A DNA stretch of 48,360 nt from Bdellovibrionota bacterium. GTDB taxonomy: Bacteria; Bdellovibrionota_C; UBA2361; SZUA-149; JAITKM01. A program made the translations under genes and the position numbers. The stretch lies in NCBI GenBank assembly GCA_031548505.1, contig JAVBQZ010000133.1, forward strand, positions 1-48,360. The letters run 5' to 3'. Shown here one piece after another: positions 29,031 through 42,579 of the stretch. The notes beneath the pieces were generated by a model. The model did no database searches. It saw only the letters and a list, made by a program, of their open reading frames with translations, and was not told the origin of the DNA. Position 1 is the first letter of the stretch, and the number at the start of each line of letters is the position of its first letter.

Positions 29031-29035
29031 ATTAA

Positions 29036-29344: not shown

Positions 29345-29346
29345 TA

Positions 29347-29835
29347 TTAGCTTTCCTCCCAAGTTAAGACTGGTAATTGAGCAACTGCATCTTCTACTGT
29401 TATTGTTGCGTCCATTACATTAGGCATTAACTCAATAGCTTTTGCCCAAGTCGAATCGTAGGCTTGATTAGCTATGCCACCATCAGATTTAAAATCAGTG
29501 GTAAGAGAAGCAAGGCGTGCAGTATCAATGCTGTCGTATTGTTTTTGTAATGCAAAATCATTTAGGTGTTGGGTGACTGCGTTTGAGAATTGTGCTTCGA
29601 GCTCTTGTTCTATTATCTCTTGTGGCTTTTGTGGCTCTGTACCTTTGATGTAAAGTACTTTGTCCCAACCACGAATAATTTCCTTGTCAGTAATTAAACA
29701 ATCATCGTGATACCAAAATTCAGCTGAATCAATTATCGTGCCGTTATCATCTACACGATAGCACAAACTACCTTCAGGTATGATTGGTATTGGTTTTGTT
29801 TCTTCAGTTGTATTTTCAAATGTTTCTGTTTCCAT
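29347..29835 (-). CDS. Hypothetical protein downstream of the tail fibre (possible fibre chaperone)
   Basis: 162 aa, beginning 2 nt after the fibre stop. The call rests on position only. Confidence 0.4.
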   Translation of the reverse strand: METETFENTTEETKPIPIIPEGSLCYRVDDNGTIIDSAEFWYHDDCLITDKEIIRGWDKVLYIKGTEPQKPQEIIEQELEAQFSNAVTQHLNDFALQKQYDSIDTARLASLTTDFKSDGGIANQAYDSTWAKAIELMPNVMDATITVEDAVAQLPVLTWEES

Positions 29836-29837
29836 AA

Positions 29838-32800
29838 TTAATAAGTATTTTCTGCGTAAGTAAATTTAAAAAAGGATATTGTGTTAGAGGGTGTATAAGA
29901 TGCTATGAATTTTTCTCCCTTTCTCACTGGAATATTAACCGCAATTGTTTGTCCAATTGCAAATGTACGAGTGAGTGCTGCAATATTAGAACCCTCATTA
30001 TCTCGTAAAAGTATAAAAGCATCAGCTACTGTGGATGTCATATACAAACTAACAAATCCATCTGCACTTGCTGTGTACTCACTTCCACTTGCATTCAAAG
30101 TTAGGTTTATATACCTATTACTAGGCACTTGGCGTTGTGCGTAATAACCAACGCACATTGATGTGTTTGTAGGTGTTTTGTTTACAGTTGTTCCAGTGAT
30201 TGCATCACGTCTGGAGTAAGGTCCATAATTTTCTATGGATTGTGGTGAAGAGTTACAAACTATGCCCGCATCTATTAAAAGTGCTCTACTACCAAGTCTG
30301 ATATTAGCTGTTGTACCCCCATTAATTGTTGTCGCTCCCCCGATTGCTAAAACACCATCCTCATGATCTAGACCATATTGACAACTTCCAACTGTGAGTA
30401 AACAATTATAAATATGACCAACCCCTTCAAAAGCACTTGTTTGGACCAGATATGTGGCAGATGTTGAGGACTTAAATTCAATGTTATTTAAAAATAATCT
30501 TTTGACTCGTTTATTTATTATAAATTTACGAATAGTATCTGAATTAATAAAATTAATTGTAGCTCTCGCTAATGCATCATTTACTGTTATTATATGTACA
30601 TTATTTAGTGGAAAAAAATTCAAATTATAATCAAATGTTTGTCCGTTAGCCAACACTATATCAACATCGGATAAACCGAGTTGATAATAACTGCCGGCCA
30701 CTTGTATCGCTTTATATAATGTTTGATATGGTTTGGCTGCTGTGCCATCACCAGTAGTATCTGAACCCGTTTCTGTATTTACGTATATCGAAATATTTCC
30801 AACATTAACAACATCAGCTTGAGTTAGCCCCTTGTTTGATGGTGATATTGGTGTTAGAAATTCACCATCTATCGCAATCCATGCTGACCAACCTGTACTA
30901 ATGTATCTTCTTCTATATGTGTTTGGAAAATTACTAGAAGTAACGCCAGTTCCATATGCAGTTTGTATTATGTCATAATTTTCGCCCCTAACTGATAATA
31001 ACCACTTAGTAAGTGCAGCACTCCCTTTTACTGGTTGATTAAAGTCAAGTACATTCCCATCCTGATAAATTGAATAGTCACCAAAAACATTCAGTGTATT
31101 GAAGTCAGTATTATTTGGTAATACTTTGTACTGTACTCCATCAGCTTGAGTTAGCCCTTTATTAGTTGTTGTTAGTTTTGTAACAAAATCGCTTTGAGTG
31201 ACGGCTAGATTCGTGGATGTAACTTCCGTTAAAAAAGAATTGTCAACATAACTTTTTGGAGTAGCGTCATCAGGTTCTTCTGCTCTAAAAACTTTAACAT
31301 TTCCGATATCACCGCGCTTAACAACAGAGTTTGCCGCAGGTTCTACCTCAAGAGCTTCCCAACCTCTACCATCACCACCTGATGTGTATACCAATTCAGC
31401 GTCACCAGTAACCGTGATTTTATCTAACTTGGTATCTGATAAATCAGTAACAAACGCACCATCATCTTTAACTGATACCGCATTATTAGGTGCCTGTGAA
31501 ACATTTAGATTCGCGCTAAAGTCTGTACCGTTATAACTACTGTTAATTGATTTCGTATTATTTGGATTAAAATTAATAGCTCCACCACCGGCAGACAATA
31601 TTTGCCATACAGTTGTGTTTGTATCAGGTTGAATTCCTGTAATAGTATTCTTGGATTTACACCCATAAGAACTACCATCAAAATAAACTATATTCGGATA
31701 TTGATAATATGCTGTCGAGCTATAATTTGAGAAGGCGAAACCTATAGTTTGCATTGCTTCTGCCATCTCTTCAGCCTGTTGAGCTGAATTGTTAGCATTC
31801 GTTTCAGATGTTGCGGCGTTAGTAGCAGATTGTGCTGCATTAGCCGCAGATGCTGCTGATGCACTTGCTGCTGATATTGCGCTTTGATTTGCAGTGTTCG
31901 CGCCCGTCGCGCTATTTTGAGCCGCAGAAGCATAGCTACTGGCATTATTAGCTGCATTACTTGCATTTGTGGCAGAAGAAGATGCGTTGTTTGCAAAATT
32001 CTTAGCGTCTATTGCAGAGCTCGCAGAATTTTGTGCCTGCGTTTCTGCTTCATCGACTAGCTCTTGTACTTCTTCTTTTTTGCCGTCAACGTATTCATCG
32101 AATATTACTATTTGACTTTCAACATACGCTGGGAATCTATCGGCTATTTGCTGTGCAGATTCTGCACTTGCTTGCGCTTCAATTGCGCTACTTGCTGCCT
32201 GCTCTGCACTTAATTCCGCTGCCTGAAAAACTTCATCTATGCCCTTAGTGACTATATAGCAGTATAGGTGAGTTGCGCGTGGAGTAATTTCATCACCGTC
32301 AGCGTGTCCGGCCATAGGATTATTTGTATTGTTATTGTTTGCGTCAAAATCTATATCGGTTGTGTAGTAACCTTCCCATGGCTCATCTCTAAGTACACTT
32401 CTAGAGCCATTTTTAAACGCTCCTTTAGTATAGTTATTTCCTTGCCCTTGTGCTCCTGCAAAACTTCCTTTTATATTTCTAATTTTGTCATCTATGCTTG
32501 CGCCTAACTCACTCAAAGTATTCGTTGCCCTGCTAAAGTTATTTCTATTAGGCACACGGATAGAAGTGCCGTTAAGTACGAATTTTCCGCATGAACCAAC
32601 TTTAGCAACTTCTGCATCAAACGCTGAAGTTGATGTCATTGGCAGATGACCTTTAACTACCGCGTCATAAAGGATTGGATAATTTACATCACAAGACGAT
32701 AACCATTGACCATTAGCGCGCACTGCTCCAGCGGGCGCAACATTAGAATAACTAAAAATTTCAGTTCCGACACTTAGCGCGCTAAACATCGCATTGCCTT

Positions 32801-33299
32801 GTCCAATTAGCTGTTGTGTCTCTTGCAATGTAAGTGCTTTCCATTCGCCATCTGAACCGCCCACAATAAAATATTGGAATTTAGGCAGAGGCATATCCGG
32901 GATTCTTACCCAGTTTATTAAGTCGGTTATAGGATTGTTGCCTACATTGTCATTTGTAAGTGATTTATAGACTGTTGCTTTTCCTGCATTAACGACTGAT
33001 GCACGTGAACCGATATAATAATTTTCTTCTGCGAGATATTCAGGAATGCCTATTTGTAATAAATAGGCGAGTTGTTGTGTAATCGTTAAATTAATCGCAT
33101 TTTCATCTTCAAGAAATGGTGCCTTGTCTTCAACACGTGAAGGCGCGATACCTTGCTCAAATATTTCGGATTGCAGTTGTTGGATGTCTTTTGTGTAGGT
33201 AGGGTTGCCTTCTGCTAACGAGCCATAAACGGCAACATCTCCGTTAGGTGATGTGCTAGCAAATATCTTTTGAAGAACGCGAGGTAGTTTAATTGCCAT
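29838..33299 (-). CDS. Tail fibre / tailspike, multidomain
   Basis: 1153 aa. Has an Ala/Ser/Asn-rich fibre-repeat segment (SSAIDAKNFANNASSSATNASNAANNASSYASAAQNSA...). Later, YVNTETGSDTTGDGTAAKPYQTLYKAIQ resembles the start of right-handed beta-helix, pectate-lyase-like domains. Confidence 0.8.
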   Translation of the reverse strand: MAIKLPRVLQKIFASTSPNGDVAVYGSLAEGNPTYTKDIQQLQSEIFEQGIAPSRVEDKAPFLEDENAINLTITQQLAYLLQIGIPEYLAEENYYIGSRASVVNAGKATVYKSLTNDNVGNNPITDLINWVRIPDMPLPKFQYFIVGGSDGEWKALTLQETQQLIGQGNAMFSALSVGTEIFSYSNVAPAGAVRANGQWLSSCDVNYPILYDAVVKGHLPMTSTSAFDAEVAKVGSCGKFVLNGTSIRVPNRNNFSRATNTLSELGASIDDKIRNIKGSFAGAQGQGNNYTKGAFKNGSRSVLRDEPWEGYYTTDIDFDANNNNTNNPMAGHADGDEITPRATHLYCYIVTKGIDEVFQAAELSAEQAASSAIEAQASAESAQQIADRFPAYVESQIVIFDEYVDGKKEEVQELVDEAETQAQNSASSAIDAKNFANNASSSATNASNAANNASSYASAAQNSATGANTANQSAISAASASAASAANAAQSATNAATSETNANNSAQQAEEMAEAMQTIGFAFSNYSSTAYYQYPNIVYFDGSSYGCKSKNTITGIQPDTNTTVWQILSAGGGAINFNPNNTKSINSSYNGTDFSANLNVSQAPNNAVSVKDDGAFVTDLSDTKLDKITVTGDAELVYTSGGDGRGWEALEVEPAANSVVKRGDIGNVKVFRAEEPDDATPKSYVDNSFLTEVTSTNLAVTQSDFVTKLTTTNKGLTQADGVQYKVLPNNTDFNTLNVFGDYSIYQDGNVLDFNQPVKGSAALTKWLLSVRGENYDIIQTAYGTGVTSSNFPNTYRRRYISTGWSAWIAIDGEFLTPISPSNKGLTQADVVNVGNISIYVNTETGSDTTGDGTAAKPYQTLYKAIQVAGSYYQLGLSDVDIVLANGQTFDYNLNFFPLNNVHIITVNDALARATINFINSDTIRKFIINKRVKRLFLNNIEFKSSTSATYLVQTSAFEGVGHIYNCLLTVGSCQYGLDHEDGVLAIGGATTINGGTTANIRLGSRALLIDAGIVCNSSPQSIENYGPYSRRDAITGTTVNKTPTNTSMCVGYYAQRQVPSNRYINLTLNASGSEYTASADGFVSLYMTSTVADAFILLRDNEGSNIAALTRTFAIGQTIAVNIPVRKGEKFIASYTPSNTISFFKFTYAENTY

Positions 33300-33328
33300 A
33301 ATCTTTTAAAAAAGTTAATTTCAAAAAG

Positions 33329-33356
33329 ATTATAAACAAAAAATCCCTTGTGTTAA
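33329..33356 (-). promoter_or_regulatory. Late promoter P(fibre): TTAACACAAG -35, 16-nt spacer, TATAAT
   Basis: On the minus strand, TTAACA is at 33356-33351 and TATAAT at 33334-33329. It lies in the 77-nt gap between MuF and the fibre gene. Confidence 0.5.
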
Positions 33357-33376
33357 GAGGCACGCTAAAAAATATT

Positions 33377-34225
33377 TTAGAATTTAGGGAGAACGATAGC
33401 CATTAGACAATGGCAGTTAACTTCTTGGCCCGGGAAGCCTGTAGCGCCTGTGGACTCATTGATAACTGGCGGTTTATCAATATCGAATATGCCACCGTTT
33501 AATCCACCGCTATTTACGCTATCTTTATGATGCTTGCGGTAAGTCATGCCTGCACTCGTATGCACCCATTTGAATTGCTTAACTCCACCTTCTTCAAAGT
33601 TGCATAGTTGAATTGCGGTGTTAACCTTGCTGATTTGGTCGTCTGCTATCATACTAGCGCGCTTCTTGGTGGATGCGCCAGTTTTTAAAATTTGCTCTTT
33701 AAGCTGCTGGTAATCGTTTCCGGCTTGTGCCGCGCGCACAACTGAACTTGTTATATTATTAAAATATTGCTCGGGAATTGACTTAATAAGGGATACGTTT
33801 TCGGCGACTGATAATCGTATAATATCCGCCATTTCTCGACTAATAGCTTTACCCTTAAGCGCGAGAATATTCTCATCTTTAATCGCCTTACGCATTGCGG
33901 AATTGAAAGCCCATTTGCCGTTGCGCAAACTTCTTAATACCATTTTCTTTGCTAGGTAAGCGCCTTTCTTATTGAACTCAATCGCAAACGCTCGCTTAAG
34001 CTCTCGTATTACATCGCGCTCTTCTGTGCCTAAGCTGTCTTGTGCTAGACTTACATCGTTTTCATTTTGTTTGTAAATTCTTAGCACTGCCTTAGATGTT
34101 GCGGCTATCATTGGCTTGCATAATTTTTCAAGCTCTTTATTATACCAAGCTTTAATTCCGGCGTTGGGACTTAGTGTCCCGCCAGTAACGTAGTTTTCTG
34201 CATTTTTTGAGCTGTTTTTAGTCAT
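33377..34225 (-). CDS. MuF / SPP1 gp7-like minor head (head morphogenesis) protein
   Basis: 282 aa. The C-terminal FKWVHTSAGMTYRKHHKD...GFPGQEVNCHC matches the Phage_Mu_F pattern. Confidence 0.75.
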   Translation of the reverse strand: MTKNSSKNAENYVTGGTLSPNAGIKAWYNKELEKLCKPMIAATSKAVLRIYKQNENDVSLAQDSLGTEERDVIRELKRAFAIEFNKKGAYLAKKMVLRSLRNGKWAFNSAMRKAIKDENILALKGKAISREMADIIRLSVAENVSLIKSIPEQYFNNITSSVVRAAQAGNDYQQLKEQILKTGASTKKRASMIADDQISKVNTAIQLCNFEEGGVKQFKWVHTSAGMTYRKHHKDSVNSGGLNGGIFDIDKPPVINESTGATGFPGQEVNCHCLMAIVLPKF

Positions 34226-34406
34226 TTTGGCTATTCTTTAGCTTTGCTTTCACTTCGTCATACATATCCAGCGGATATTCGCCTTTGCTTTCGTCAGGTT
34301 CGTAATCTTTCATAACGGTCAGTCTAACTATCATATTGTCTTCAATGGTGAGAATTGTTTTTGTAGCTTGAGCATCTTTTAGCCATCTTTCTGCCATACT
34401 TGTCAT
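34218..34406 (-). CDS. Hypothetical protein, 62 aa
   Basis: Lies between portal and MuF, overlapping the MuF start by 8 nt. Confidence 0.4.
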   Translation of the reverse strand: MTSMAERWLKDAQATKTILTIEDNMIVRLTVMKDYEPDESKGEYPLDMYDEVKAKLKNSQND

Positions 34407-34427
34407 AATAATCTCCCGTTATTTAAT

Positions 34428-36962
34428 TTATACTAATAATTTAGCTTTAAATACGATGTTGCCATCCGAATTTTTACTTTGTTCATATATTTTATACCTC
34501 GAGCCTTTTTGCAGAAGAAATTCCTGTTCCTCTGGCGTTGCTGAATGGTCGAAAATATATGCGCCTCTTCCTATACCCTTTGGAACATCAATTTCCAATA
34601 TTGCTTTTTGTGCAAACGGTGGCGGGAAGTTTTTCGCTATATTGCCAACGCCCTCCCTAGAAAATGATGTTGATGCAAAGGCTGAATCTTTTTCAACTTC
34701 GCCAACTAATTGCTCTGGTGATTTATCGCCAAATACATCTTTATACGGCATAGAGCGAAATACTTTTACATCCTCTGTAAGTTCGTATTTTGATATAGCT
34801 TCGGCTATATTATCAGCTTGCTCTTTATTACCATATTTATCAACACCAGTCCTTAATCCCCTGTTTATCTCTTCATATGTATCGCCTGTATATGTGCTTA
34901 TGCTATGTTTTTGTGCTTGACTGAGATTTTTATTCCATTCTGTAGTTTTGTCAATTAAGTCGTGTATTGGCTCGTCTGGGTCGTCGACTTTAAATTCTTT
35001 TACGTTATTGGCATGCATAATACTTTCTTTATTTTTAACCTCTTTTTCTGAATCTTTATAGTTACTTGCTTCACGAACTGATATTTCTCTTTTGATGCTT
35101 TCTATTGCGCCTAGAGCAATAGTTTTTTGCCGTTCGTTGTTATTATATTTGCCATTTTCTAAATCCTGTTCAATTTTCTCTACGTCAGATTTAAGTTTTT
35201 CAGTTGAGAACTTTTTATATATTTCATTAGGCTTTTCTTTTATTTCTTTATTTGAGCTTGCACTTTCTGATTTACTAGCCCCACCACCTCCGCCACCTTT
35301 TGTAAATTTCCCGCCCTTGTCTCTTGGGTGATCGTCTTCCTTGAAATCTCCATCAGTCGCAACACCAAACGCCCCATTAATTATTCCATCAATATCTATT
35401 CCGCCTTCCAGCCATTCCGCCTCTTCGCCTTCCGTCATCTCTTCTTTATCCTGCAACATCGTATAAGCACCATCAGCATCGCCTTTAAGAATCACCCTTT
35501 GTTCTTCAGGTGAAATGACACCACTGCCAATATAAACTGACGCTGTATTTGCTCTGATTTGCTCCGTTTCTGCGATTTCTTTCGCTGTAGGTGTATCAAC
35601 CGGATTAAAGACAACATTCAGATAAATAACCTTTCCGCACTCTGACTTTGTCATCATCTCATTATGTCTATTAATCAGTGGGATAAAATCATTCTCTTGA
35701 ATATCTATCAGTGTTTGTGCGTAATCTTTCATCTCGTATTCGCCAGTAGCATTAAAGCCTTTAGGCGTGGTTTTAAGCAGTTTTGTTGCTGGCATTTCAG
35801 CAAGAGATGCTACAAGTTGGTATTGTGTCATTACGGACTCGTCTAGTCCAGCTAATGATGTGTCTAACTGCGTAGGGCTTTGTTCAGTATCATGTATCCA
35901 AACGCCGTGATTGTTGCGTGTCTCGACTAATGTATTAATGGCGGTTCTCAATCTGTCTTCATCAAGAATACCATTTAGAAAATTACCGCCCATTGTTAGT
36001 AATCGCTTAGACAATACCAACATAGGTACTTCATCTGCCGTTTTTTCCGCGCAATAAACACGCTTATAGATTTGCTGTGTTAGCGGTACACCGCCATAAT
36101 AGTAGGCAGGTTTAAGAACATCTGAAACTTCTTCATTAATAACTTTAACACACCAACTACGGTGAATTAGTTTTCCGCCATTGAGGCGATACCATGTAGG
36201 AACTTGGAAATATAAACTATCAGGATTTTGAATTGATTCAGCATCAAACTCCGGCATTATCCAGTAAGGGTCGACGATTTTAAAACCTTCGTAGGAATTA
36301 GGCTTAATTGAATCAATATTGTAGGGAAGTGATAAGTTTAGAGTCTTGTCATTAAAAATAGGAATGGCCAAGCCGTAGCCAAAAGTCTTTTTATTAATGG
36401 TTAGCTTTTTACAAGCGTCTTTAATCTTAAAGTCTTGGTCTGATTTTCTTTTTAAATCAGCGAGTAATTTAACCTTTTCGTCTGTACTTTCTATATCTTC
36501 GCTTTCGTCTTTATCAATGTCACTTTCATCTTGGTAGGTAAGCCTATAGTCTGTAGCAATAGCGTCTTTTGCAGGTATTTCGCAAGCCGAGCCAATCATC
36601 TTATTTTGTTTTAGAATTGCACAGGCATTAAAACCAATGAAGTAGTCTTGAAACATATCCAAGACGGCATCTGTACCGGGTTTAAATCTATATTTTGTAG
36701 TTATTCTGTCGCCCACACTATCCATTGCAACAGATGTTGGTTTGCCGTTATCATCAATACGAATAATGCTATCAATTGTCTTAGAGAATATTTTGTTTAG
36801 AAGCTCGTCACGAGATATAGCTTTATCTGCTTTATCAATTTCGTTTAACCTAATTAGCGCGCCTAATACCTTTTCAATATTTTGTTCTTTATTTTCTATA
36901 GGTGCGCTAACAATCATACCTTTATTCTCTTTGCGAAATATCTCTTTGACAAATCCTAACAT
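34428..36962 (-). CDS. Portal protein fused to a C-terminal ADP-ribosyltransferase (R-S-E type) domain
   Basis: 844 aa, starting 1 nt after the TerL stop. The N-terminal ~540 aa are portal-like (DUF1073-type as I recall). A linker follows: DDHPRDKGGKFTKGGGGGG. The C-terminus carries YTGDTYEEINRGLR, VFRSM, FASTSFS and EEQEFLLQKGSRY, i.e. the R, STS and ExE motifs. Confidence 0.75.
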   Translation of the reverse strand: MLGFVKEIFRKENKGMIVSAPIENKEQNIEKVLGALIRLNEIDKADKAISRDELLNKIFSKTIDSIIRIDDNGKPTSVAMDSVGDRITTKYRFKPGTDAVLDMFQDYFIGFNACAILKQNKMIGSACEIPAKDAIATDYRLTYQDESDIDKDESEDIESTDEKVKLLADLKRKSDQDFKIKDACKKLTINKKTFGYGLAIPIFNDKTLNLSLPYNIDSIKPNSYEGFKIVDPYWIMPEFDAESIQNPDSLYFQVPTWYRLNGGKLIHRSWCVKVINEEVSDVLKPAYYYGGVPLTQQIYKRVYCAEKTADEVPMLVLSKRLLTMGGNFLNGILDEDRLRTAINTLVETRNNHGVWIHDTEQSPTQLDTSLAGLDESVMTQYQLVASLAEMPATKLLKTTPKGFNATGEYEMKDYAQTLIDIQENDFIPLINRHNEMMTKSECGKVIYLNVVFNPVDTPTAKEIAETEQIRANTASVYIGSGVISPEEQRVILKGDADGAYTMLQDKEEMTEGEEAEWLEGGIDIDGIINGAFGVATDGDFKEDDHPRDKGGKFTKGGGGGGASKSESASSNKEIKEKPNEIYKKFSTEKLKSDVEKIEQDLENGKYNNNERQKTIALGAIESIKREISVREASNYKDSEKEVKNKESIMHANNVKEFKVDDPDEPIHDLIDKTTEWNKNLSQAQKHSISTYTGDTYEEINRGLRTGVDKYGNKEQADNIAEAISKYELTEDVKVFRSMPYKDVFGDKSPEQLVGEVEKDSAFASTSFSREGVGNIAKNFPPPFAQKAILEIDVPKGIGRGAYIFDHSATPEEQEFLLQKGSRYKIYEQSKNSDGNIVFKAKLLV

Positions 36963-38201
36963 TTAAAAAGCTCCTTTATTGAAAAAATCTAACTCGGTTG
37001 CGTACCTTACTGAATCCAAACAATGGTTGTTCTTATCAGGGTAGTCGCTTCTAACAGTGCCGTCTTTCATCTTTTCGTATTCGTAGTTTATAAACTCTTT
37101 ATACGTGTTTGGGCATCTTGCAGGATCAATTACAATTTCTATTAGGCCCTGCAGTTTCTTAATCCCGAAATGAATACTGCCTGCGCCTTTGGCTGCTGCT
37201 CTAATATTAAATCCGGCGTTCCTAAATTCAGATATACTCTTAGGCTCCGCGCTATCCGCGATAATATTACCATACTTCTCTACCTTCATGTGAAGTTTTT
37301 TTATTGCTTCATCGTTAGAAAAACCGACTTTATAGACTTCATCGAAAATATAAATTTTGCGGCGTGTCTTATCGTAGTGGAGTTTGATATAAACGAAAGG
37401 ATCAACAGCAAAGCCCCAGTCTATGCCTTGCCTGATATTATCAAAGGCTTTTATTTCATAGTCTGTGATTGGGCGGCCAACAACATTGGTGAATACGTTA
37501 AGCCCTGTGCCTGTAGCTATGCCTAGATATTCGTGATCGTAGGCTTGTGAATTTGTATTTTTTAACAACTCGGCTTCAATATGAAAGTTCTCTCCGTTCC
37601 ATTCTTTAGGGACGTCTAAGTAAGTAGATGAATGAACGTGGCGTCTAGGGTGGGCGATTTGTGCTTCTGCATTTACCCAGCTATTTGTTTTTTGAGGTGG
37701 GTTGTACGAATAGAAGTAAGTGAATAGTTTTCCGCCCCTAAGTATAGATTGAGTAACTAGGCGGATTTCTTCCATGCCATCAAATTCGTCTAACTCCTCA
37801 AACCATGCAAATTTGAAATAACCTTTTTTGAGTTTAATGGACTTTGTCTTTTTAGGGTCGTCTAATCCTCTAAAGAATATGGCTTGCCCTGTAGGCTTGT
37901 AATAGATTCTTAGCGGGCTTAATCGCGTATCAAAATAGTTAGAAACGCCTAGTTTATCTATTGCCCAGAGGATTTGGGCGTAACAGCTGTCTTTGAGAGT
38001 GTCGCCGACTTTTCGGAAGCATATCGCATTAGCTTCTTTATCTTGAATAATACCTAATATGATTTCTACGCTTACAAAACTAGATTTGGTGCTGCCACGT
38101 CCACCTTTAAGCCAATAATGTGTGAAGGCATTGGTTTTTACTAAATGATGGAGGTCGTAAAATGATGGTGCAATACAATCTGTTAATCTTATTGTACTCA
38201 T
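36963..38201 (-). CDS. terL: Terminase large subunit (PBSX/XtmB-like)
   Basis: 412 aa. Walker A-like LKGGRGSTKSS, Walker B-like FAWFEELDEF, and a C-terminal nuclease region. Confidence 0.9.
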   Translation of the reverse strand: MSTIRLTDCIAPSFYDLHHLVKTNAFTHYWLKGGRGSTKSSFVSVEIILGIIQDKEANAICFRKVGDTLKDSCYAQILWAIDKLGVSNYFDTRLSPLRIYYKPTGQAIFFRGLDDPKKTKSIKLKKGYFKFAWFEELDEFDGMEEIRLVTQSILRGGKLFTYFYSYNPPQKTNSWVNAEAQIAHPRRHVHSSTYLDVPKEWNGENFHIEAELLKNTNSQAYDHEYLGIATGTGLNVFTNVVGRPITDYEIKAFDNIRQGIDWGFAVDPFVYIKLHYDKTRRKIYIFDEVYKVGFSNDEAIKKLHMKVEKYGNIIADSAEPKSISEFRNAGFNIRAAAKGAGSIHFGIKKLQGLIEIVIDPARCPNTYKEFINYEYEKMKDGTVRSDYPDKNNHCLDSVRYATELDFFNKGAF

Positions 38202-38590
38202 TTTCCTTTGTTGCTTTTTTTAGACTTAGGGACATCGTCAGATATTGTTGGCGGTTCTGTTTCAACGGTTAGTTTATCTGCTGGTTTTTGCCCTGTGGTG
38301 TCGCGGATGAACTCAGCGGCCTTTGTATTTCCCTCAAGCGCGAGATTCCACATCTTCACTGATAAAGCATCGGTTAGGGTTAAGTCTTTGCCTGAGATTT
38401 GTTTGTGTGTGGCTAGTATCTCGCTCACTGTCTCAGGCTTCGGATTAAACTCCCCAAACATCAATAATGATGCTCGCATATCTCTTTTTACACGCCTAGA
38501 TTTTCCTGACGCGATTCCACCTTTTTGTGAGATTTCCTTTGCTTCGCGTTTGGTTCGTTTATTAATTGGTATTAAATCTTCCTTGCTCAT
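38198..38590 (-). CDS. Terminase small subunit
   Basis: 130 aa, basic N-terminus (KRTKREAKEISQKGGIASGKSRR). ATGA overlap with terL. Confidence 0.6.
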   Translation of the reverse strand: MSKEDLIPINKRTKREAKEISQKGGIASGKSRRVKRDMRASLLMFGEFNPKPETVSEILATHKQISGKDLTLTDALSVKMWNLALEGNTKAAEFIRDTTGQKPADKLTVETEPPTISDDVPKSKKSNKGK

Positions 38591-38597
38591 ATATCAT

Positions 38598-38625
38598 ATT
38601 TTACCACTTTATTTTCTTGTGTTAA
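38598..38625 (-). promoter_or_regulatory. Late promoter P(pack): TTAACACAAG -35, 16-nt spacer, TAAAAT
   Basis: On the minus strand, TTAACA is at 38625-38620 and TAAAAT at 38603-38598. The terS ATG begins 7 nt after the -10 element and has no SD. Confidence 0.5.
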
Positions 38626-39102
38626 TAAGTAGGGAATCTTTATCTAAAATGAATATCTCATCATTCCCGATGCTCAATTTGACGAAACTTTTGAAGTACG
38701 AGAAAAAGCCTTTTCTGCTAATTTTGTTAGTTTTGATAAGTTCTTTGAATTTCATTAGTAGCCTGATGTCTAGTCCGGCATAATCACATAAGGTTAATAG
38801 ATACTCATCGTTATCAAGAAACGTGTCTTGCCCTGAATATATTGACTCGCAGAGGCTTTCCCGTATTATCGCTATAAATAGATTTCTGTTGGGATTATCG
38901 GTGTATAGATATGAATAATAATTGCGCTTTCTTGTATGTGAAGCAATGTGCTTAGGCTTTGAAAAATCAATTTCTAGTTGTAAAAAGCAAATAGAATTAC
39001 TGCCTCGCCAGCCTTTTTCTCTTCTTTTTTTTTACGTAAAAAGTCTATTTGCATATTAAATGCAAAGATACATTGCTGTTCTGATCGCTCGTAGTAGCCC
39101 AT
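38609..39102 (-). pseudogene. ORF interrupted at an A9 homopolymer (frameshift needed for a 164-aa product)
   Basis: The ATG at 39102 opens a 42-codon frame, MGYYERSEQQCIFAFNMQIDFLRKKK.... The -1 frame is open from the A9 run (T9 on the plus strand, 39025-39033) to the stop at 38609-38611. That frame has no start codon until near its end. Confidence 0.4.
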
Positions 39103-39115
39103 AGTAACTTAAATG

Positions 39116-39325
39116 TTATATCTTACCCCCGTATAAAAACTTATTACTCCCGTCTACTCGCTCACGCCTTATCTTGCCTTTAAGATATAGCACCGAAATA
39201 GTCGGTCTAATAGAAGTAGCTTTGATGCCTTCGTGATGGTATTCTAGCCACTCTACAATTTCATTCACGGTATAGAATGCCTTCTTGTCTTTTAGGAAGT
39301 TGAGGATTGATTTTTCTATTGTCAT
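39116..39325 (-). CDS. Small winged-helix-like DNA-binding protein
   Basis: Trimmed to ATG 39325 (MTIEKSILNF), preceded by agaggaa. 69 aa. YTVNEIVEWL...IRPTISVLYLKGKIRRE is wHTH-like. Confidence 0.45.
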   Translation of the reverse strand: MTIEKSILNFLKDKKAFYTVNEIVEWLEYHHEGIKATSIRPTISVLYLKGKIRRERVDGSNKFLYGGKI

Positions 39326-39339
39326 TTTGTTTCGTTCCT

Positions 39340-39801
39340 CTAATGCTTCTCCAAACAAATTTTTCTAATTTCGCTCTCATCTAATTCAGGATATTTTTTC
39401 ACTAAATGCCGGATATAATCTTCATCACTTTCGCCTTGAACCTCCGCAAATTTCCTGATTGTTTTATTTTTATGCAGAACTATGAAATCCATTTTAACGT
39501 CACTTTCTAGCGTTGCTTTGCGTACTAGTTCAGGGATTTCGCCGTTGATTTTAGGTTGCGTAACCTCAGAATTCCGTCTGCGAATAAATTCAAGGTGGGC
39601 AAGAAAAACTGCAGGTTCTGGAAACTTCCCGTAGAACCTTTCGTGCGCCAAAACTGAATCACAAACGTCGGAAAACTCCTCGTCAGCAATGTTTTGCTTT
39701 GAGAAAAAACTAAACAACGCTCCCGTTTGTTTTTCGCTAACCTCAAAACCGCAGATTACTGAAATCCGGCTAATTGATTGGATAAATTTCTCTAGTTTCA
39801 T
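39340..39801 (-). CDS. Hypothetical protein of the replication module
   Basis: 153 aa. Overlaps the DUF1376 gene end by 32 nt. Confidence 0.5.
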   Translation of the reverse strand: MKLEKFIQSISRISVICGFEVSEKQTGALFSFFSKQNIADEEFSDVCDSVLAHERFYGKFPEPAVFLAHLEFIRRRNSEVTQPKINGEIPELVRKATLESDVKMDFIVLHKNKTIRKFAEVQGESDEDYIRHLVKKYPELDESEIRKICLEKH

Positions 39802-40585
39802 TTTGTTTTTCCTTTGGGTTTTTATGTTTTTCTAAAATTCGTTTGAACGTTTCTGCATTCTTTTCCTCGATAGATTGTTTCTGTTGCTGTGGTGGCGGTT
39901 TATTCGCAAGTTTCAGCGCGAAAATACCTTCCCAGTTGTTTGCGATTGACTGGTCAATTATGCTTTTCGCTACTGCAAAATCGCTGTTTGCAAGGCGTAG
40001 AAGTTCCGCGTAAAACTTTGAAAATTGTTTTTGGGTTTTGATTGGTTTCTTGATTTCGTGCCGATGCTCAAGCCATTCGCCGATACTGATGCGTAGTTCT
40101 TGTGCAATTTCTGATACGTCGGGGGCAAAGTTTTGATTGAGTTTTGGAACGTCAGATTTTTTCGCTATATTTTTTTTATTTTCAATTCTAATTTCATTTT
40201 CATTTTCATTTTCAATTTCAGTTAGGTTATCTTTAGGTTTTGTTTTTGAAAACCTGTAGGTTTCGTTTAGGTTATCTTTAGGTTTTGCAGGACGACCACC
40301 TAATTTGCCATTTTCACGACTCGCATCTGAATCTTTGCCTCTTTTATCAATTTCCTTTTGTAATCTTACATTGTAATAATTGCCATTTTCATCTTGAACA
40401 AATTTCTCCCTAACAGCATCAAATGAGCATTTACGATTAAAATCCCTTTCGCAAAGATGTCCCTTTTGATGTTGCAAGCAAAGTATTCTAATATATTGCC
40501 CAACCTCTTCATCGGTCATACAATCGCAACCAGTTAGAAAATCTTGTGCATAAAATAAAAATGCTGGGTCTTGTCCTATGCTCAT
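39770..40585 (-). CDS. DUF1376 (YdaU-like) replication-associated protein
   Basis: 271 aa. The N-terminus, DPAFLFYAQDFLTGCDCMTDEEVGQYIRILCLQHQKGHL, matches the DUF1376 pattern. Confidence 0.75.
   Translation of the reverse strand: MSIGQDPAFLFYAQDFLTGCDCMTDEEVGQYIRILCLQHQKGHLCERDFNRKCSFDAVREKFVQDENGNYYNVRLQKEIDKRGKDSDASRENGKLGGRPAKPKDNLNETYRFSKTKPKDNLTEIENENENEIRIENKKNIAKKSDVPKLNQNFAPDVSEIAQELRISIGEWLEHRHEIKKPIKTQKQFSKFYAELLRLANSDFAVAKSIIDQSIANNWEGIFALKLANKPPPQQQKQSIEEKNAETFKRILEKHKNPKEKQNETREIYPIN
40222..40287. repeat. Two perfect 21-bp direct repeats (iteron-like) inside the DUF1376 gene
   Basis: ttaggttatctttaggttttg occurs at 40222-40242 and 40267-40287. Between them is the small palindrome aaacctgtaggttt. 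An adjacent periodic AT-rich run, cattttcattttcattttcaatttca, is at about 40195-40220. Confidence 0.6.
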
Positions 40586-40693
40586 AAAATTTACTTTCTA
40601 AAATTTATAAAAAAGCGCGCGAGCCGTATCTACAATAGTAGAAATTTAAAAATACTCACGCGCCAAAAACTTAAAGTTCGTTTTTAGGGGGTA

Positions 40694-41533
40694 TCAAAAT
40701 GGGTTTGGATTAAATTCAATTGAATTATTATCCGCGCCCATGATTTCTACTTTCTTCTCTTCGTTTTCTTCCGCATCATCTCCCACAGGGCCATCTACAT
40801 ACTCTGCCACAGCACCTTCATCACTAACCACGGCACCATCAGCTACAAACGCACGTTGCATATCAACTGAAAGCATTCCCCAACGACTTAACAATTGTCT
40901 GAGCACCGTTTTTCGTGCCATTGCATCGAAATTATCAGCCCATAATGATGTCTTGCGTTTGCCGTTGAGATAGGCCTGGTGCGCCTGTGAATATTTTTTA
41001 GCGTGTTCTTTTAACTCTTCTACACTCATGTAAATGGCTTTCGTGAATCCGTTAAGATAGGTAAATGTTGCCATGTATCCGATTACGTTTTTCTTGATAC
41101 GTTCAGATTCGTTCGTAGTGAAATTAAAAATATATTTCCCAGTATTAGCTGAACGCCCGGAATATTCGCCTTCGCGAATATCGGTGACATCAATATCAGA
41201 ATATTGGCCACTTCGGATTGCAAGTTGAATGTAACCTTTGTAGCCGAGTTGGAAGACTGCCTTGTTAGCGAAAGGCACTAGATAGAATTGCCCAAGCGCA
41301 GACGCGCAAGACAATTTGAGCGATTGTCCAAGCAGTGCCGCGCTAACGATGCTCTTGTATTCGCAACTTTCTAACATTGGATTATTAGCTACTGCGCTAA
41401 CTACTGTTGTCACAAAGTCATTAGCACTATTTCCGCATGTGTTTTTAACGCTATTTTTAACAGCTTCCGAAGCCATAAACTGCCCGAAAGTGCCTTTTTG
41501 ATTGGTTTTTGTTAAACTATTTTGTAATGCCAT
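40694..41533 (-). CDS. recT: RecT-family single-strand annealing protein
   Basis: 279 aa. SIVSAALLGQSLKLSCASALGQFYLVPFANKAVFQLGYKGYIQLAIRSGQY is typical of RecT. Confidence 0.85.
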   Translation of the reverse strand: MALQNSLTKTNQKGTFGQFMASEAVKNSVKNTCGNSANDFVTTVVSAVANNPMLESCEYKSIVSAALLGQSLKLSCASALGQFYLVPFANKAVFQLGYKGYIQLAIRSGQYSDIDVTDIREGEYSGRSANTGKYIFNFTTNESERIKKNVIGYMATFTYLNGFTKAIYMSVEELKEHAKKYSQAHQAYLNGKRKTSLWADNFDAMARKTVLRQLLSRWGMLSVDMQRAFVADGAVVSDEGAVAEYVDGPVGDDAEENEEKKVEIMGADNNSIEFNPNPF

Positions 41534-41550
41534 ATTTCCCCCTAAAGTTT

Positions 41551-42384
41551 TTAATTAATAACCGAGCATGGAATTTCATACTCACGAATGCAGTCACGTA
41601 GTTTTTCTTTCTGAAAAGAATTAACTACGAATTGAAGTTTTAAGGTTTCTGTTCCGAAGGTATTCTCAACAGTTGGAACTTCTGCCGCTTGTTGAGGTTG
41701 CTCGGCTGGTGCAACGTTCCTGTGAAATACTTTCTCTTGAGGTTGTGTTTGGGTTTGCACTTGAACTTGCTCGCGCCTTTTCTTCTCGTTCTGTAGAACT
41801 AATTCATGTTGCAGAACTTTTCCGAGTTCGAGCGTCTCGAAGAATTTAGAAATTAATTCGTCTTTAAATTCTGTCTTAGTGTTGAGAACATCGAACTCGC
41901 TTTTTAACCTATCAGCTAAATCTGTTAGCTCTTTCATTACGTCTTCTGATTTGTACGTGACGTTGAGCCAGCGTTCGTTGAAGATGCGTCCAATTTCAAC
42001 GCGATTAATTTCGCTCTCGTCAGTTAGAGTTAGCCAAAAAGCCTCAATTTCTGCGCGTTTTTGGTCTTTTTTCGCATTCTCGAATTTTTTAATTTGGCTA
42101 TCAATTTCGTCTAAAGGTTCGTTAATAAGCGCGACTAATTCTTTAATCTTCGCCTCGAAATCCATGTAAGGTTCTGCTTGTTGAGCCTTAATTTCTTTGC
42201 GCTTACTTTCTAGTGTATCGCGGAAAGTAGCCAACTTCGCGCGGTCTGCTTTTGCAGTTTTAATTTGCGCATCGTCGTAAACCAACCCTTTATAAGTTTC
42301 TAATTTGTTGATGATTCCGGTTTTTAATTCCTCGAAATTAAAGGTGATTGGATATGCCCTAATCTCGCTAATAATAATTTCCAT
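41551..42384 (-). CDS. DUF1351-like protein (recombination-module accessory)
   Basis: 277 aa. ITFNFEELKTGIINKLETYKGLVYDDAQIKTAKADRAKL...RKEIK matches my memory of DUF1351. That family is commonly found beside RecT or Erf. Confidence 0.6.
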   Translation of the reverse strand: MEIIISEIRAYPITFNFEELKTGIINKLETYKGLVYDDAQIKTAKADRAKLATFRDTLESKRKEIKAQQAEPYMDFEAKIKELVALINEPLDEIDSQIKKFENAKKDQKRAEIEAFWLTLTDESEINRVEIGRIFNERWLNVTYKSEDVMKELTDLADRLKSEFDVLNTKTEFKDELISKFFETLELGKVLQHELVLQNEKKRREQVQVQTQTQPQEKVFHRNVAPAEQPQQAAEVPTVENTFGTETLKLQFVVNSFQKEKLRDCIREYEIPCSVIN

Positions 42385-42393
42385 TGTTTCCCC

Positions 42394-42579
42394 CTAAAAA
42401 TTAAGTTTGTTGATATTAAATATGTTGTCATTACTTAGCGAATCACGCAGAGCGTCCAGCAATTCATTGACTACTTCGCTCGGCTCGTCATCGAGCTTTT
42501 GCAAATTCTCAATCAGAGAAATTGCGTTCATAATGTCGTTGGCATCCCTGTTTTTCGCATCGTAAATTTGTTTATTCAT
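42394..42579 (-). CDS. Hypothetical acidic protein, 61 aa
   Basis: 4-nt overlap with the upstream exonuclease gene. Confidence 0.4.
   Translation of the reverse strand: MNKQIYDAKNRDANDIMNAISLIENLQKLDDEPSEVVNELLDALRDSLSNDNIFNINKLNF

What the first reader, a model, noticed from the sequence alone, without database searches (positions are those of the whole stretch)
34428..35340. Portal protein carries a C-terminal ADP-ribosyltransferase toxin-like domain
The 844-aa ORF directly after terL has a portal-sized N-terminal region of about 540 aa. This is followed by a HPRDKGGKFTKGGGGGG linker, a charged helical stretch, and a domain with the three R-S-E ART hallmarks in the correct order: VFRSM, FASTSFS and EEQEFLLQKGS. 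These are preceded by YTGDTYEEINRGLR.

ART cargo domains are known on MuF/gp7-type minor head proteins and on T4 Alt. Here MuF is a separate gene (33377-34225) and the ART is attached to the portal ORF. This implies one of two things. Either up to 12 ART copies are tethered at the portal vertex, or proteolytic release by the head protease is followed by ejection. No obvious immunity gene is adjacent; the 62-aa ORF at 34218-34406 is the only candidate.
Basis: partly seen in the sequence, partly recalled or inferred. Interest (0 to 1): 0.65.

Follow-up and report, generated by a model that had tools for sequence, protein, structure and literature searches.

The report
Phage portal protein carrying ADP-ribosyltransferase cargo
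A prophage's portal protein, the ring through which DNA enters and leaves the phage head, has an intact toxin-type ADP-ribosyltransferase fused to its inner end with a small partner gene next to it; this is one example of a widespread swappable portal-cargo system that was predicted from sequences but never tested in the lab.

Summary
ORF 34428..36962 (-) is one uninterrupted 844-aa gene next to terL. Pfam finds Phage_portal_3 (aa 112-474, E=4e-63) and ADPrib_exo_Tox (aa 672-831, E=6e-24). The catalytic residues R736, S764-T-S766 and E812-Q-E814 are intact, and the predicted fold matches C3, Vip2 and Certhrax.

The fusion is not an artefact. The same architecture occurs on independent contigs, and the junction DNA is unremarkable.

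It is not a one-off. About half of the closest portal homologs carry a C-terminal cargo domain: ART, PBECR1 RNase, glutamine deamidase, LPD13 or others. Cultured Pbunavirus portals carry an InPase enzyme in the part that cryo-EM could not resolve. Two 97%-identical phages differ only by a cargo cassette swapped exactly at the junction.

Many junctions carry a conserved leader motif, [FW]xExxHPRDxxG[KR]F. The 62-aa ORF travels with this ART cassette in an unrelated gene context, and the deamidase cargos likewise have co-diverging small ORFs. This supports a cognate inhibitor (immunity-type) role.

The most likely mechanism is a head-internal, portal-anchored, arginine-specific ART that is released and injected with the DNA. 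Portal-effector fusions were already described computationally (Iyer 2017, 2022), so this is a new member of a known kind.

The parts
34428..36962 (-). Complete portal-ART gene (844 aa plus stop), abutting the terL stop codon
   Evidence: No homopolymers or Ns, uniform GC, and the alternative frames are closed at the junction.
35463..36962 (-). Portal region, aa 1-500. The Pfam PF06381 core is aa 112-474 (35541..36629). The last crown/barrel helices end at about aa 494.
   Evidence: E=3.8e-63; 39% identity to Pbunavirus portals over aa 77-511; full-length AF2 model confident for about aa 105-500.
35346..35462 (-). Acidic, predicted-disordered linker, aa 501-539
   Evidence: pLDDT below 50 for aa 502-539; sequence.
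35301..35345 (-). Junction ('cargo leader') motif FKEDDHPRDKGGKFT, aa 540-554
   Evidence: Consensus [FW]xExxHPRDxxG[KR]F at the core/cargo junction in 55 of 120 portal homologs. It is repeated before later modules in P0058 and P0056, and sits at the N-terminus of standalone ART proteins. Local pLDDT rises to about 69 with a small hairpin.
35232..35300 (-). Gly/Ser-rich flexible spacer, aa 555-577
   Evidence: pLDDT below 50; the Gly6 run is encoded by mixed GGN codons with no slippery run.
35025..35231 (-). Charged helical hairpin, aa 578-646, function unknown. It partly matches the pre-ART region of Alt-like proteins (phrog_802).
   Evidence: helices, pLDDT 80-94; phrog_802 hit at aa 30-175 of the C-terminal fragment; no Pfam family.
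34431..34967 (-). ADP-ribosyltransferase domain, aa 666-844 (R-S-E clade, C3/Vip2-like). The mobile cassette shared with P0121 is aa 639-842 (34437..35048).
   Evidence: Pfam; PDB sequence hits to Vip2, Certhrax and a Listeria ART effector; AF2 pLDDT above 90; Foldseek hits to C3bot1, Certhrax, Vip2, Plx2A and iota Ia; 64% identity to P0121.
34755..34757 (-). Codon of catalytic Arg R736 (VFR)
34665..34673 (-). Codons of the S764-T765-S766 (STS) motif
   Evidence: S764 is invariant in the family alignment.
34521..34529 (-). Codons of E812-Q813-E814 (ExE motif; an ExE rather than QxE motif predicts arginine specificity)
   Evidence: E814 invariant, E812 at least 90% conserved.
34218..34406 (-). 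62-aa acidic ORF, candidate cognate inhibitor (immunity protein) of the ART. It has a GGGAG Shine-Dalgarno sequence 7 nt upstream, and its stop overlaps the MuF start codon.
   Evidence: Its only homolog (P0270, 74 aa, L001 1578-1802) lies directly downstream of the only close ART homolog, P0121. RBS and coupling. No Pfam, PHROG or PADLOC hit.
33377..34225 (-). Separate MuF (SPP1 gp7-like) minor head protein gene without cargo
36963..38201 (-). Large terminase subunit
   Evidence: Terminase_3 plus Terminase_3C.
22249..23385 (-). DUF2213 / Pa193_gp24-type head-maturation protease-scaffold protein, the candidate enzyme for releasing the cargo
   Evidence: phrog_3778 and phrog_530 'head maturation protease'; PF09979 E=9e-43. 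The protease role is an annotation, not tested; the Pa193 paper calls the homolog a scaffold.
5254..43714 (.). The host prophage (about 38.4 kb), bounded by a 70-nt direct repeat that duplicates the 3' half of tRNA-Asn
   Evidence: Repeat D2 at 5254-5323 and 43645-43714; tRNA-Asn at 43660-43735; integrase at 5463..6470.

Best explanation
The gene encodes the only portal protein of a roughly 38-kb temperate myovirus prophage. Its C-terminus follows the crown/barrel helices that, in homologous portals, point into the head. From there it continues through a disordered acidic linker, a conserved 'leader' motif (FKEDDHPRDKGGKFT), a Gly-rich spacer and a helical hairpin into a catalytically intact, C3/Vip2-type, arginine-specific mono-ADP-ribosyltransferase.

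Shown:
- The architecture and the intact active site.
- The fold.
- This portal family is a modular carrier whose C-terminal cargo cassette is exchanged by recombination exactly at the junction. Cargos include ART, PBECR1 RNase, glutamine deamidase, LPD13 and InPase.
- Toxic cargos bring a cargo-specific small ORF with them.

Inferred:
1. Up to 12 ART copies are built into the procapsid interior because they are covalently part of the portal ring.
2. While still in the producing cell, the 62-aa protein binds and silences the ART, as Bsi does for the MuF-ART toxin Bxa.
3. The cargo is freed from the portal in or near the linker/leader, most likely by the DUF2213 head-maturation protease.
4. At the next infection it leaves through the portal and tail channel with the DNA, as T4 Alt does.
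5. It then ADP-ribosylates arginines of host proteins, either to favour takeover or to blunt defence.
For: Architecture and active site. Fold.

The fusion is real:
- Portal-ART fusions with the same synteny (terL, portal-ART, [small ORF], MuF, DUF2213, cement, MCP) occur on independent contigs: P0034, P0066 (11 contigs), P0069 (5 contigs) and P0058. P0146 is a further PF06381 + PF03496 protein (domain scan only).
- BFVD already holds ART domains in proteins named portal.

Modularity:
- 48 of 120 closest portal homologs have an annotated extra Pfam domain, and about 59 of 104 have more than 130 aa after the core.
- L003 (ART) and L007 (PBECR1) are 97% identical on both sides of a swapped cassette whose 5' breakpoint is portal codon about 515.

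Topology:
- E217 and Pa193 portals are 39% identical to this one. Their C-terminal barrel projects into the head, and residues 529-765 are unresolved. That part is an InPase enzyme domain.

Small ORF:
- The 62-aa ORF and its only homolog both follow the two members of this ART sub-family.
- The three deamidase-cargo portals have homologous small ORFs whose divergence tracks the cargo: 61% cargo identity with 56% ORF identity, and 37% with 28%.
- The cargo-less portal locus examined has no small ORF.

Precedent: MuF-ART Bxa is a promiscuous Arg-ART that is toxic to bacteria and is neutralised by a small binding protein (PMC11699363). Head-packaged ARTs fused to MuF or portal were predicted earlier (PMC9503650 and PMC5512222).
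Against: - No experiment shows packaging, cleavage, ejection or enzymatic activity.
- The protease role of DUF2213 is an annotation; the Pa193 authors interpret the homolog as a scaffold.
- No cleavage-site consensus could be established. The AMD[SA]-like similarity between the portal and MCP N-termini is only suggestive.
- One portal-ART locus (L002) and the PBECR1 and LPD13 loci have no small ORF, so an inhibitor is not universal.
- The ART-specific small-ORF linkage rests on only two loci.
- If the cargo stays covalently attached to the portal it cannot be injected.
Confidence: 0.6

Rival explanations
1. The ART stays covalently tethered to the portal ring (12 copies) and is never injected. 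It would act at the portal vertex or in the producing cell, for example by modifying packaging or head proteins, or host factors and defences that target the portal-terminase machinery.
For: Iyer et al. 2022 raise this alternative for ARTs linked to packaging genes. In E217 and Pa193 the C-terminal enzyme extension is simply unresolved, and no cleavage has been demonstrated. No cleavage consensus was found here.
Against: A tethered enzyme inside a DNA-filled head has no obvious access to NAD+ or to substrates. The same leader motif also starts standalone cargo proteins and separates modules in polyvalent proteins, which fits a delivered cargo better. A cargo-specific inhibitor ORF is expected for an enzyme that must be kept inactive until delivery.
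Confidence: 0.15
2. It is mainly an interbacterial weapon, a polymorphic toxin in the sense of the MuF toxins. Virions released by a lysogen subpopulation would intoxicate non-immune competitors, and the 62-aa protein would immunise kin lysogens.
For: Cassette swapping at a fixed junction and co-diverging small ORFs are the hallmarks of polymorphic toxin-immunity systems. Jamet 2017 proposed this role for MuF toxins of temperate phages. The element is a temperate prophage.
Against: The 62-aa ORF sits inside the late operon and is translationally coupled to MuF. It has no promoter signal above chance, so it is probably not expressed in uninduced lysogens and could not protect them. Twelve or fewer enzyme molecules per infection argues for modulation rather than killing.
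Confidence: 0.15
3. The ART is a lysis-released factor acting on eukaryotic cells (like Bxa on epithelial cells, or Vip2, C3 and iota toxins on actin or Rho). In this reading the portal fusion is only an expression and stabilisation vehicle.
For: The closest solved structures are eukaryote-targeting toxins. Bxa, a MuF-ART, acts on host epithelial cells.
Against: There is no translocation or binding component and no signal peptide. The nearest relatives are overwhelmingly phage head, MuF and polyvalent proteins. The host and habitat of this contig are unknown.
Confidence: 0.07
4. The fusion is an assembly or sequencing artefact, with portal and ART actually being two genes.
For: This exact protein is seen on a single contig. 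No reads are available.
Against: Fusions of the same kind exist on independent contigs from different samples. The junction has no homopolymer, no N and uniform composition, and the other frames are closed. The linker carries the family-typical leader motif at the family-typical position.
Confidence: 0.02

Closest known systems
Portal- and MuF-fused effectors / 'polyvalent protein' theme (Iyer, Burroughs, Anand, de Souza, Aravind 2017, PMC5512222; Iyer et al. 2022, PMC9503650)
   Same: A head structural domain is fused to a C-terminal enzymatic effector that is predicted to be packaged and injected. ART of the Alt/VIP2 family is named as a frequent cargo, and portal fusions to PBECR, 2H, InPase, Nudix and ART are mentioned.
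   Different: Those papers are purely computational and catalogue the architectures. They do not describe this protein, the HPRD-type leader motif (the word search found no 'HPR'), the cassette breakpoints or cargo-specific small ORFs for portal fusions. This protein has a single effector, so it is the simplest architecture rather than a true multi-effector polyvalent protein.
MuF polymorphic toxins (Jamet et al. 2017, PMC5576092), including the characterised MuF-ART Bxa with its Bsi and BAH immunity proteins (Alexei et al. 2024, PMC11699363)
   Same: Temperate-phage head-module gene with a conserved N-terminal virion domain, a variable C-terminal toxin (ART, glutamine deamidase and others) and a small downstream ORF. 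Bxa is an Arg-specific ART neutralised by a small binder.
   Different: The carrier here is the portal (12 copies per virion, essential), not MuF (SPP1 gp7 is present at about 1-2 copies per capsid). MuF is a separate, cargo-less gene in this prophage. No ADP-ribosylhydrolase (BAH-like) gene was found in the parts of the prophage scanned.
Pbunavirus portal gp19 (E217, Pa193; 765 aa)
   Same: Same portal family (39% identity, PF06381), the same myovirus head-gene set, and a C-terminal enzyme extension after the barrel that projects into the head.
   Different: The cargo there is an InPase domain (PF18823), not an ART. There is no HPRD leader motif, and the next gene is MuF directly with no small ORF between portal and MuF. 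The fate of the extension is unknown because it gave no cryo-EM density.
T4 Alt (internal head ADP-ribosyltransferase)
   Same: A phage ART carried inside the head and injected with the DNA. The region before the ART domain weakly matches Alt-like proteins (phrog_802, E=3.7e-5). Background.
   Different: Alt is a free protein targeted to the prohead core by an N-terminal capsid-targeting sequence and trimmed by gp21 (my own knowledge). Here incorporation would be achieved by covalent fusion to the portal.
C3 / Vip2 / iota-Ia / Certhrax R-S-E ADP-ribosyltransferases
   Same: The same fold and the same catalytic R, STS and ExE constellation.
   Different: Those are secreted toxins aimed at eukaryotic actin, Rho or vinculin and have their own delivery components. 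Sequence identity is only about 20-29%.

Membership tests
R-S-E clade mono-ADP-ribosyltransferases (Pfam PF03496, C2/C3/Vip2-like) | Profile match above the curated threshold | tested here: met
   84.9 bits against a cut-off of 23.4, E=6.2e-24, aa 672-831.
R-S-E clade mono-ADP-ribosyltransferases (Pfam PF03496, C2/C3/Vip2-like) | Catalytic Arg, Ser-Thr-Ser and Glu-x-Glu in order and on the homologous columns | tested here: met
   R736, S764-T-S766 and E812-Q-E814 align with the corresponding Vip2 residues. They are invariant or at least 90% conserved in 41 relatives.
R-S-E clade mono-ADP-ribosyltransferases (Pfam PF03496, C2/C3/Vip2-like) | ART fold | tested here: met
   AF2 model with pLDDT above 90 over the core. 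Foldseek hits: C3bot1 E=2e-14 with target TM about 0.7; also Certhrax, Vip2 and Plx2A.
R-S-E clade mono-ADP-ribosyltransferases (Pfam PF03496, C2/C3/Vip2-like) | NAD+-dependent transfer of ADP-ribose to a target (arginine predicted from the ExE motif) | not testable with these tools
   Needs an enzyme assay. The specificity inference rests on the established ExE (Arg) versus QxE (Asn) rule.
Phage portal protein, PF06381 (Phage_portal_3 / former DUF1073) | Profile match and homology to structurally verified portals | tested here: met
   E=3.8e-63. 39% identity over aa 77-511 to the Pa193 and E217 gp19 portal solved by cryo-EM.
Phage portal protein, PF06381 (Phage_portal_3 / former DUF1073) | Gene position directly after terL, and the only portal candidate in the phage | tested here: met
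   It abuts terL. All other large prophage ORFs are assigned to other functions or are too small.
Phage portal protein, PF06381 (Phage_portal_3 / former DUF1073) | Forms the dodecameric ring at the unique capsid vertex | not testable with these tools
   Needs virion structure or proteomics.
MuF polymorphic toxins (Jamet 2017) | N-terminal MuF domain (PF04233, PF06152, MuF3 or MuF4) as carrier | tested here: not met
   The carrier is PF06381 portal, and MuF is the separate gene 33377..34225. It therefore works like a MuF toxin but is not a member.
MuF polymorphic toxins (Jamet 2017) | Conserved carrier with variable C-terminal toxin domains exchanged between close relatives | tested here: met
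   L003 and L007 are 97% identical outside a swapped cassette. Several cargo types sit on one portal family.
MuF polymorphic toxins (Jamet 2017) | Small cognate immunity ORF immediately downstream | tested here: inconclusive
   The 62-aa ORF co-occurs with this ART cassette in both known loci. The deamidase cargos have co-diverging small ORFs. However, n=2 for the ART pair, binding and neutralisation are untested, and one portal-ART locus lacks a small ORF.
Polyvalent proteins (Iyer 2017) | Two to 15 effector or accessory domains in one virion- or conjugation-delivered polypeptide | tested here: inconclusive
   There is one structural domain plus one effector. The paper lists such portal or MuF fusions as 'the simplest architectures'. 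Relatives such as P0058, P0056, P0070 and P0163 are truly multi-module.
T4 Alt-type internal head proteins | Free protein with an N-terminal capsid-targeting sequence removed by the prohead protease | tested here: not met
   The ART is the C-terminal part of the portal polypeptide. Only weak similarity to Alt-like PHROG 802 exists upstream of the ART.

The most novel reading that the evidence does not exclude
The short motifs found at the cargo junctions may be portable 'cargo leader' peptides. They are [FW]xExxHPRDxxG[KR]F in this gene, and GSGNFGHAGRPGxVGGS or KWITV(N/K)... in relatives. They would mark head-delivered effector cassettes across portal fusions, polyvalent proteins and standalone genes, and would act as the recognition or cleavage signal that loads, releases or orders cargo for ejection. 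Together with cargo-specific inhibitor ORFs this would define a general, programmable portal-anchored protein-delivery system in which any enzyme placed behind the leader is carried in up to 12 copies per virion.
Probability: 0.3. Interest if true: 0.7.

Novelty: new member of a known kind. Interest (0 to 1): 0.45.

Why it matters
How tailed phages load proteins into the head and send them into the next cell is understood for only a few models (T4 Alt and internal proteins, P22 ejection proteins, N4 vRNAP).

A portal that carries its cargo covalently fixes both the copy number (up to 12) and the location (the crown, on the DNA exit path). That makes packaging, release and ejection directly testable with one gene.

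The family-wide cassette exchange and the leader motif suggest a natural plug-and-play delivery module. This is relevant to phage-host arms races (early ADP-ribosylation of host or defence proteins) and to engineering phages that deliver enzymes.

It also bears on an unexplained feature of therapeutic Pbunavirus phages, where about 240 C-terminal residues of the portal are invisible by cryo-EM. Those residues are an enzyme cargo of the same kind.

Tried and rejected
1. Word-indexed homolog searches with the cargo alone and with the small ORF profile returned only one relative each. This was informative for linkage but gave no broader family for the 62-aa protein.
2. Host identification through SecY in genome contigs gave only about 50% identity (Thermodesulfobacteriota and Pseudomonadota MAGs). 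The host remains an unplaced diderm.
3. A literature search for the motif strings returned only Human Protein Reference Database noise. No paper, Pfam family or PDB entry describing the leader motif was found.
4. Protease cleavage-site idea. I looked for a shared site between the portal linker, the portal N-terminus, the MCP N-terminus and DUF2213 proteins. Only a loose AMD[SA]-like similarity appeared, which is not enough to claim a site.
5. Programmed frameshift or two-isoform idea. There is no slippery heptamer or homopolymer at the junction, and both alternative frames close quickly, so I dropped it.
6. Search for an ADP-ribosylhydrolase or macro-domain partner. None was found among the prophage ORFs scanned and there was no PADLOC hit for the ART or the small ORF. 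Not every small ORF was scanned.
7. The Pa193 supplementary proteomics, which could show whether the portal C-terminus is present in virions, is not held.
8. My local MuF HMM, built from seven sequences, was too weak to count MuF carriers among ART relatives reliably. I therefore make no quantitative MuF-versus-portal claim beyond 'one further portal fusion (P0146) among the 149 best representatives'.
Full report
**1. What is in the sequence**

The window holds a prophage.
- A 70-nt direct repeat (5254-5323 and 43645-43714) duplicates the 3' half of a tRNA-Asn gene at 43660-43735.
- It brackets about 38.4 kb that contains an integrase (5463..6470), RecT and YqaJ recombination genes, terS and terL, head genes, a contractile-tail module (sheath, baseplate hub and wedge, tape measure) and a lysozyme.
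- SecY and a HipA-like kinase lie outside the repeats.

The ORF in question is 34428..36962 on the minus strand. It is 844 codons long, starts right after the terL stop, and is followed by a 62-codon ORF (34218..34406) and then MuF (33377..34225). The 62-codon ORF has a GGGAG ribosome-binding site, and its stop overlaps the MuF start codon, so all three genes form one translationally coupled late-operon block. Promoter-like and terminator-like sites in the region are no more frequent than in shuffled sequence.

**2. Check of the observation**

- Pfam finds Phage_portal_3 (aa 112-474, E=3.8e-63) and ADPrib_exo_Tox (aa 672-831, E=6.2e-24) in the same polypeptide. PHROGs agrees: portal families, plus 'ADP-ribosyltransferase exoenzyme toxin' and an Alt-like family for the C-terminus.
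- Sequence search of the PDB hits Vip2, a Listeria ART effector and Certhrax.
- In an alignment with 40 relatives, S764 and E814 are invariant and R736 and E812 are at least 90% conserved.
- An AlphaFold model of aa 560-844 has mean pLDDT 85, with the ART core above 90. It matches C3bot1, Certhrax, Vip2, Plx2A, CDTa and iota-Ia at E of about 1e-12 to 1e-14.
- An ExE motif (not QxE) predicts arginine as the acceptor. This is an established rule for this clade and was not tested here.

The full-length model gives this domain map:

| Residues | Feature |
|---|---|
| about 105-500 | Confident portal core |
| 502-539 | Disordered acidic linker |
| 541-554 | Small ordered blip at the HPRD motif |
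| 555-585 | Disordered Gly-rich spacer |
| about 581-646 | Helical hairpin |
| about 635-664 | Disordered linker |
| 666-844 | ART domain |

**3. Is the fusion real?**

- The junction DNA has no homopolymer, no N and uniform GC and GC3. Both other reading frames are closed by several stops.
- More importantly, the same architecture exists elsewhere. P0034 (832 aa), P0066 (765 aa, 11 contigs), P0069 (974 aa, 5 contigs), P0058 (1183 aa) and the more distant P0146 (701 aa) all combine PF06381 with PF03496.
- Where the gene context was examined, they sit in the same gene order: terL, portal-ART, an optional small ORF, MuF, DUF2213, cement, MCP.
- The BFVD library of viral structures also contains ART domains inside proteins named 'portal'.

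An assembly artefact is very unlikely. Read mapping is the only check left.

**4. The wider picture: a modular portal carrier**

- Among the 120 best portal homologs, 48 have an additional annotated Pfam domain: 35 PBECR1, 5 ADPrib_exo_Tox, 4 LPD13, 3 Gln_amidase and 1 ART-PolyVal. About 59 of the 104 with a recognisable core end have more than 130 residues after it.
- The closest cultured relatives are the Pbunavirus portals at 39% identity. They are 765 aa long, and their C-terminal part is an InPase domain (PF18823, E=3e-43).
- In the E217 and Pa193 cryo-EM structures, only residues 94/97-528 were modelled. The C-terminal barrel 'projects into the head', and residues 529-765 gave no density.
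- By homology, the ART of the present protein lies inside the capsid, attached to the crown of the portal.

**5. Cassette exchange**

Loci L003 (ART cargo) and L007 (PBECR1 cargo) are 97% identical over 3.9 kb upstream and 2.9 kb downstream. They differ only in a replaced segment: 1011 nt against 557 nt. The 5' breakpoint is portal codon about 515, just after '...TLDEW'. The 3' breakpoint lies about 50 nt before MuF. The ART version brings a 47-codon ORF with it. This is the behaviour of polymorphic toxin systems.

**6. Junction motifs**

- In 55 of the 120 portals, the cargo is preceded at residue about 500-545 by [FW]xExxH[PN]RDxxG[KR]F. In the window this is FKEDDHPRDKGGKFT, aa 540-554.
- In P0058 and P0056 the motif recurs before the later module.
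- Other portals use 'KWITV(K/N)...' or 'GSGNFNHAGRP...' at the same place.
- The HPRD motif is not confined to portals. Among the 149 best relatives of the ART found by an exhaustive HMMER search, it begins six standalone proteins at residues 9-14. It also separates modules of a 1535-aa protein containing several ART matches and a GNAT domain, alternating there with four GNFGHAGRPG motifs.
- By composition, roughly 0.01 chance occurrences would be expected in those sequences (my estimate).
- No Pfam family, PDB entry or paper describing the motif was found.

I read it as a leader that belongs to the cargo: a packaging, processing or ejection signal. Its function is not shown.

**7. The 62-aa ORF**

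- The ART cassette has a single close relative in both the word-indexed and the exhaustive searches. This is P0121, 64% identical over aa 639-842.
- P0121 is a separate 304-aa gene with its own HPREEGGQF leader. It is followed by a 74-aa ORF that is 47-53% identical to the window's 62-aa ORF.
- A profile of the two small ORFs finds no other member in 5.8 billion clusters. Cargo and small ORF therefore move as a pair.
- The same holds for another cargo. The three glutamine-deamidase portals (P0028, P0056, P0060) are each followed by a homologous 71-87-aa ORF, and its divergence tracks that of the cargo.
- The cargo-less portal overlaps MuF directly. The PBECR1 and LPD13 loci, and one ART locus, have no small ORF.
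- This matches the characterised MuF-ART toxin Bxa. Its antibacterial Arg-ADP-ribosylation is blocked by the small adjacent protein Bsi, and its MuF-deamidase relatives also have small downstream ORFs (PMC11699363).

Because the 62-aa ORF is embedded in the late operon, I favour protection of the producing cell during assembly over immunity of lysogens.

**8. Mechanism**

Shown:
- An intact ART is covalently part of the only portal protein.
- The portal family is a carrier with exchangeable cargo.
- Cargo-specific small ORFs exist.
- The topology, by homology, places the cargo in the head.

Inferred:
1. Up to 12 copies are incorporated.
2. The 62-aa protein inhibits the ART before packaging.
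3. The cargo is released in or near the linker or leader, possibly by the DUF2213 protease-scaffold protein (22249..23385).
4. It exits with the DNA, as T4 Alt does.
5. It ADP-ribosylates arginines of host proteins.

Portal maturation cleavage has precedent in this group only as a possibility. The Pa193 portal residues 1-93 were not detected by LC-MS, and its MCP is modelled only from residue 66.

The main rival is that the cargo remains tethered. The other rivals concern the biological role (interbacterial toxin, or eukaryote-directed factor) rather than the chemistry.

**9. Comparison with what is known, and novelty**

- Iyer et al. (2017, 2022) already reported that PBECR, 2H, InPase, Nudix and ART domains are fused to MuF or portal domains, and predicted head packaging and injection.
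- Zhang et al. (2012) and Jamet et al. (2017) defined the MuF toxin system.
- Alexei et al. (2024) characterised a MuF-ART with its immunity proteins.

The present gene is therefore a new member of a known, computationally described kind. It is not a MuF toxin, because the defining MuF carrier is absent, but it most likely works like one.

I did not find the following in the papers I read: the precise junction and leader motifs, the near-isogenic cassette swap, the cargo-specific small ORFs for portal fusions, and the recognition that the unresolved Pbunavirus portal C-terminus is the same kind of cargo. These make the system experimentally attractive, but they are extensions rather than a new category.

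I score interest at 0.45.

Noticed in passing
window 5254-5323 and 43645-43714: A 70-nt direct repeat (93% identical) duplicates the 3' half of tRNA-Asn (43660-43735). These are the attL and attR sites of a roughly 38.4-kb prophage, with the integrase at 5463..6470.
   Followed up: yes
window 22249-33299 compared with loci L002-L010: In all related loci MuF is followed directly by DUF2213, cement and MCP. In the window about 10 kb is inserted between MuF and the DUF2213 gene: a 1153-aa tail-fibre-like gene, a 162-aa ORF, a holin-like ORF, a lysozyme and baseplate genes. The head module is therefore split, which suggests a module rearrangement.
   Followed up: partly
window 12797-14203 (+): A 468-aa protein with TM2 and TerB_N domains matches SngA of the Shango anti-phage system (PADLOC E=1.9e-11). 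It lies in the prophage's accessory region near a Dit-like tail protein gene on the opposite strand (9736..10623). No SngB or SngC was seen, so this is a possible prophage-encoded defence moron.
   Followed up: partly
window 36717-36734 (portal aa 77-82, SVAMDS) and 21662-21676 (MCP aa 19-23, LAMDS); also portals P0002-P0120: An AMD[SA]-type motif sits in the N-terminal region of the portals (position 58-95 in 60 of 120) and near the MCP N-terminus in the window and in L002. In Pa193 these regions are absent from the model. It could be a shared scaffold or protease docking or processing element. Unexplained.
   Followed up: partly
proteins P0163, P0058, P0056, P0070: Multi-module phage proteins use HPRDxxG[KR]F and GNFGHAGRPGxVGGS as repeated delimiters between modules (P0163 has 2 + 4 copies). 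The motif 'KWITV...EEKGRHLLLxDGETPxxAMKRQWG' is a third junction type.
   Followed up: partly
PHROG phrog_30637 (profile of 1119 positions): The window's portal (aa 263-615) matches profile positions 2-367 and the window's DUF2213 protein matches positions 742-1015. Some phages therefore appear to encode portal fused to DUF2213 protease/scaffold.
   Followed up: no
L011 4300-6597 (Pseudomonas phage Pa193 gp19; RefSeq 'minor head protein'): The cryo-EM-invisible C-terminal 237 residues of the Pbunavirus portal are an InPase domain (PF18823, E=3e-43). The structural papers read here do not mention it.
   Followed up: yes
L005 and L006 2171-3835; L002 1-2403; L008 1-411 and L093 28-870: Related phages carry an intein in terL (PF14890). 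One has a QueC / PTPS / radical-SAM / GTP-cyclohydrolase I cluster (7-deazaguanine-type DNA modification) upstream of the terminase genes, and two have TAGT-family genes.
   Followed up: no
window 1046-2245 (+) with 719-1033 (+): A HipA-like kinase (HipA_C E=3e-47) with a small upstream ORF lies outside the prophage. It is probably a host HipBA-type toxin-antitoxin pair.
   Followed up: no
window 45592-45662 / 47874-47944 and 47151-47241 / 48077-48167: Two pairs of 70-90-nt direct repeats (81-90% identical) lie in the host flank downstream of SecY. Their nature is unknown.
   Followed up: no
L001 654-1568 (P0121): The standalone ART homolog starts with two copies of a 'KRERDKMIDAI(L/I)AEA(Y/F)' helix that resembles the portal's pre-leader segment 'IDGIINGAFG'. 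This hints that free cargo proteins may mimic the portal tail. The contig is too short to identify the upstream gene, which has no Pfam hit.
   Followed up: partly
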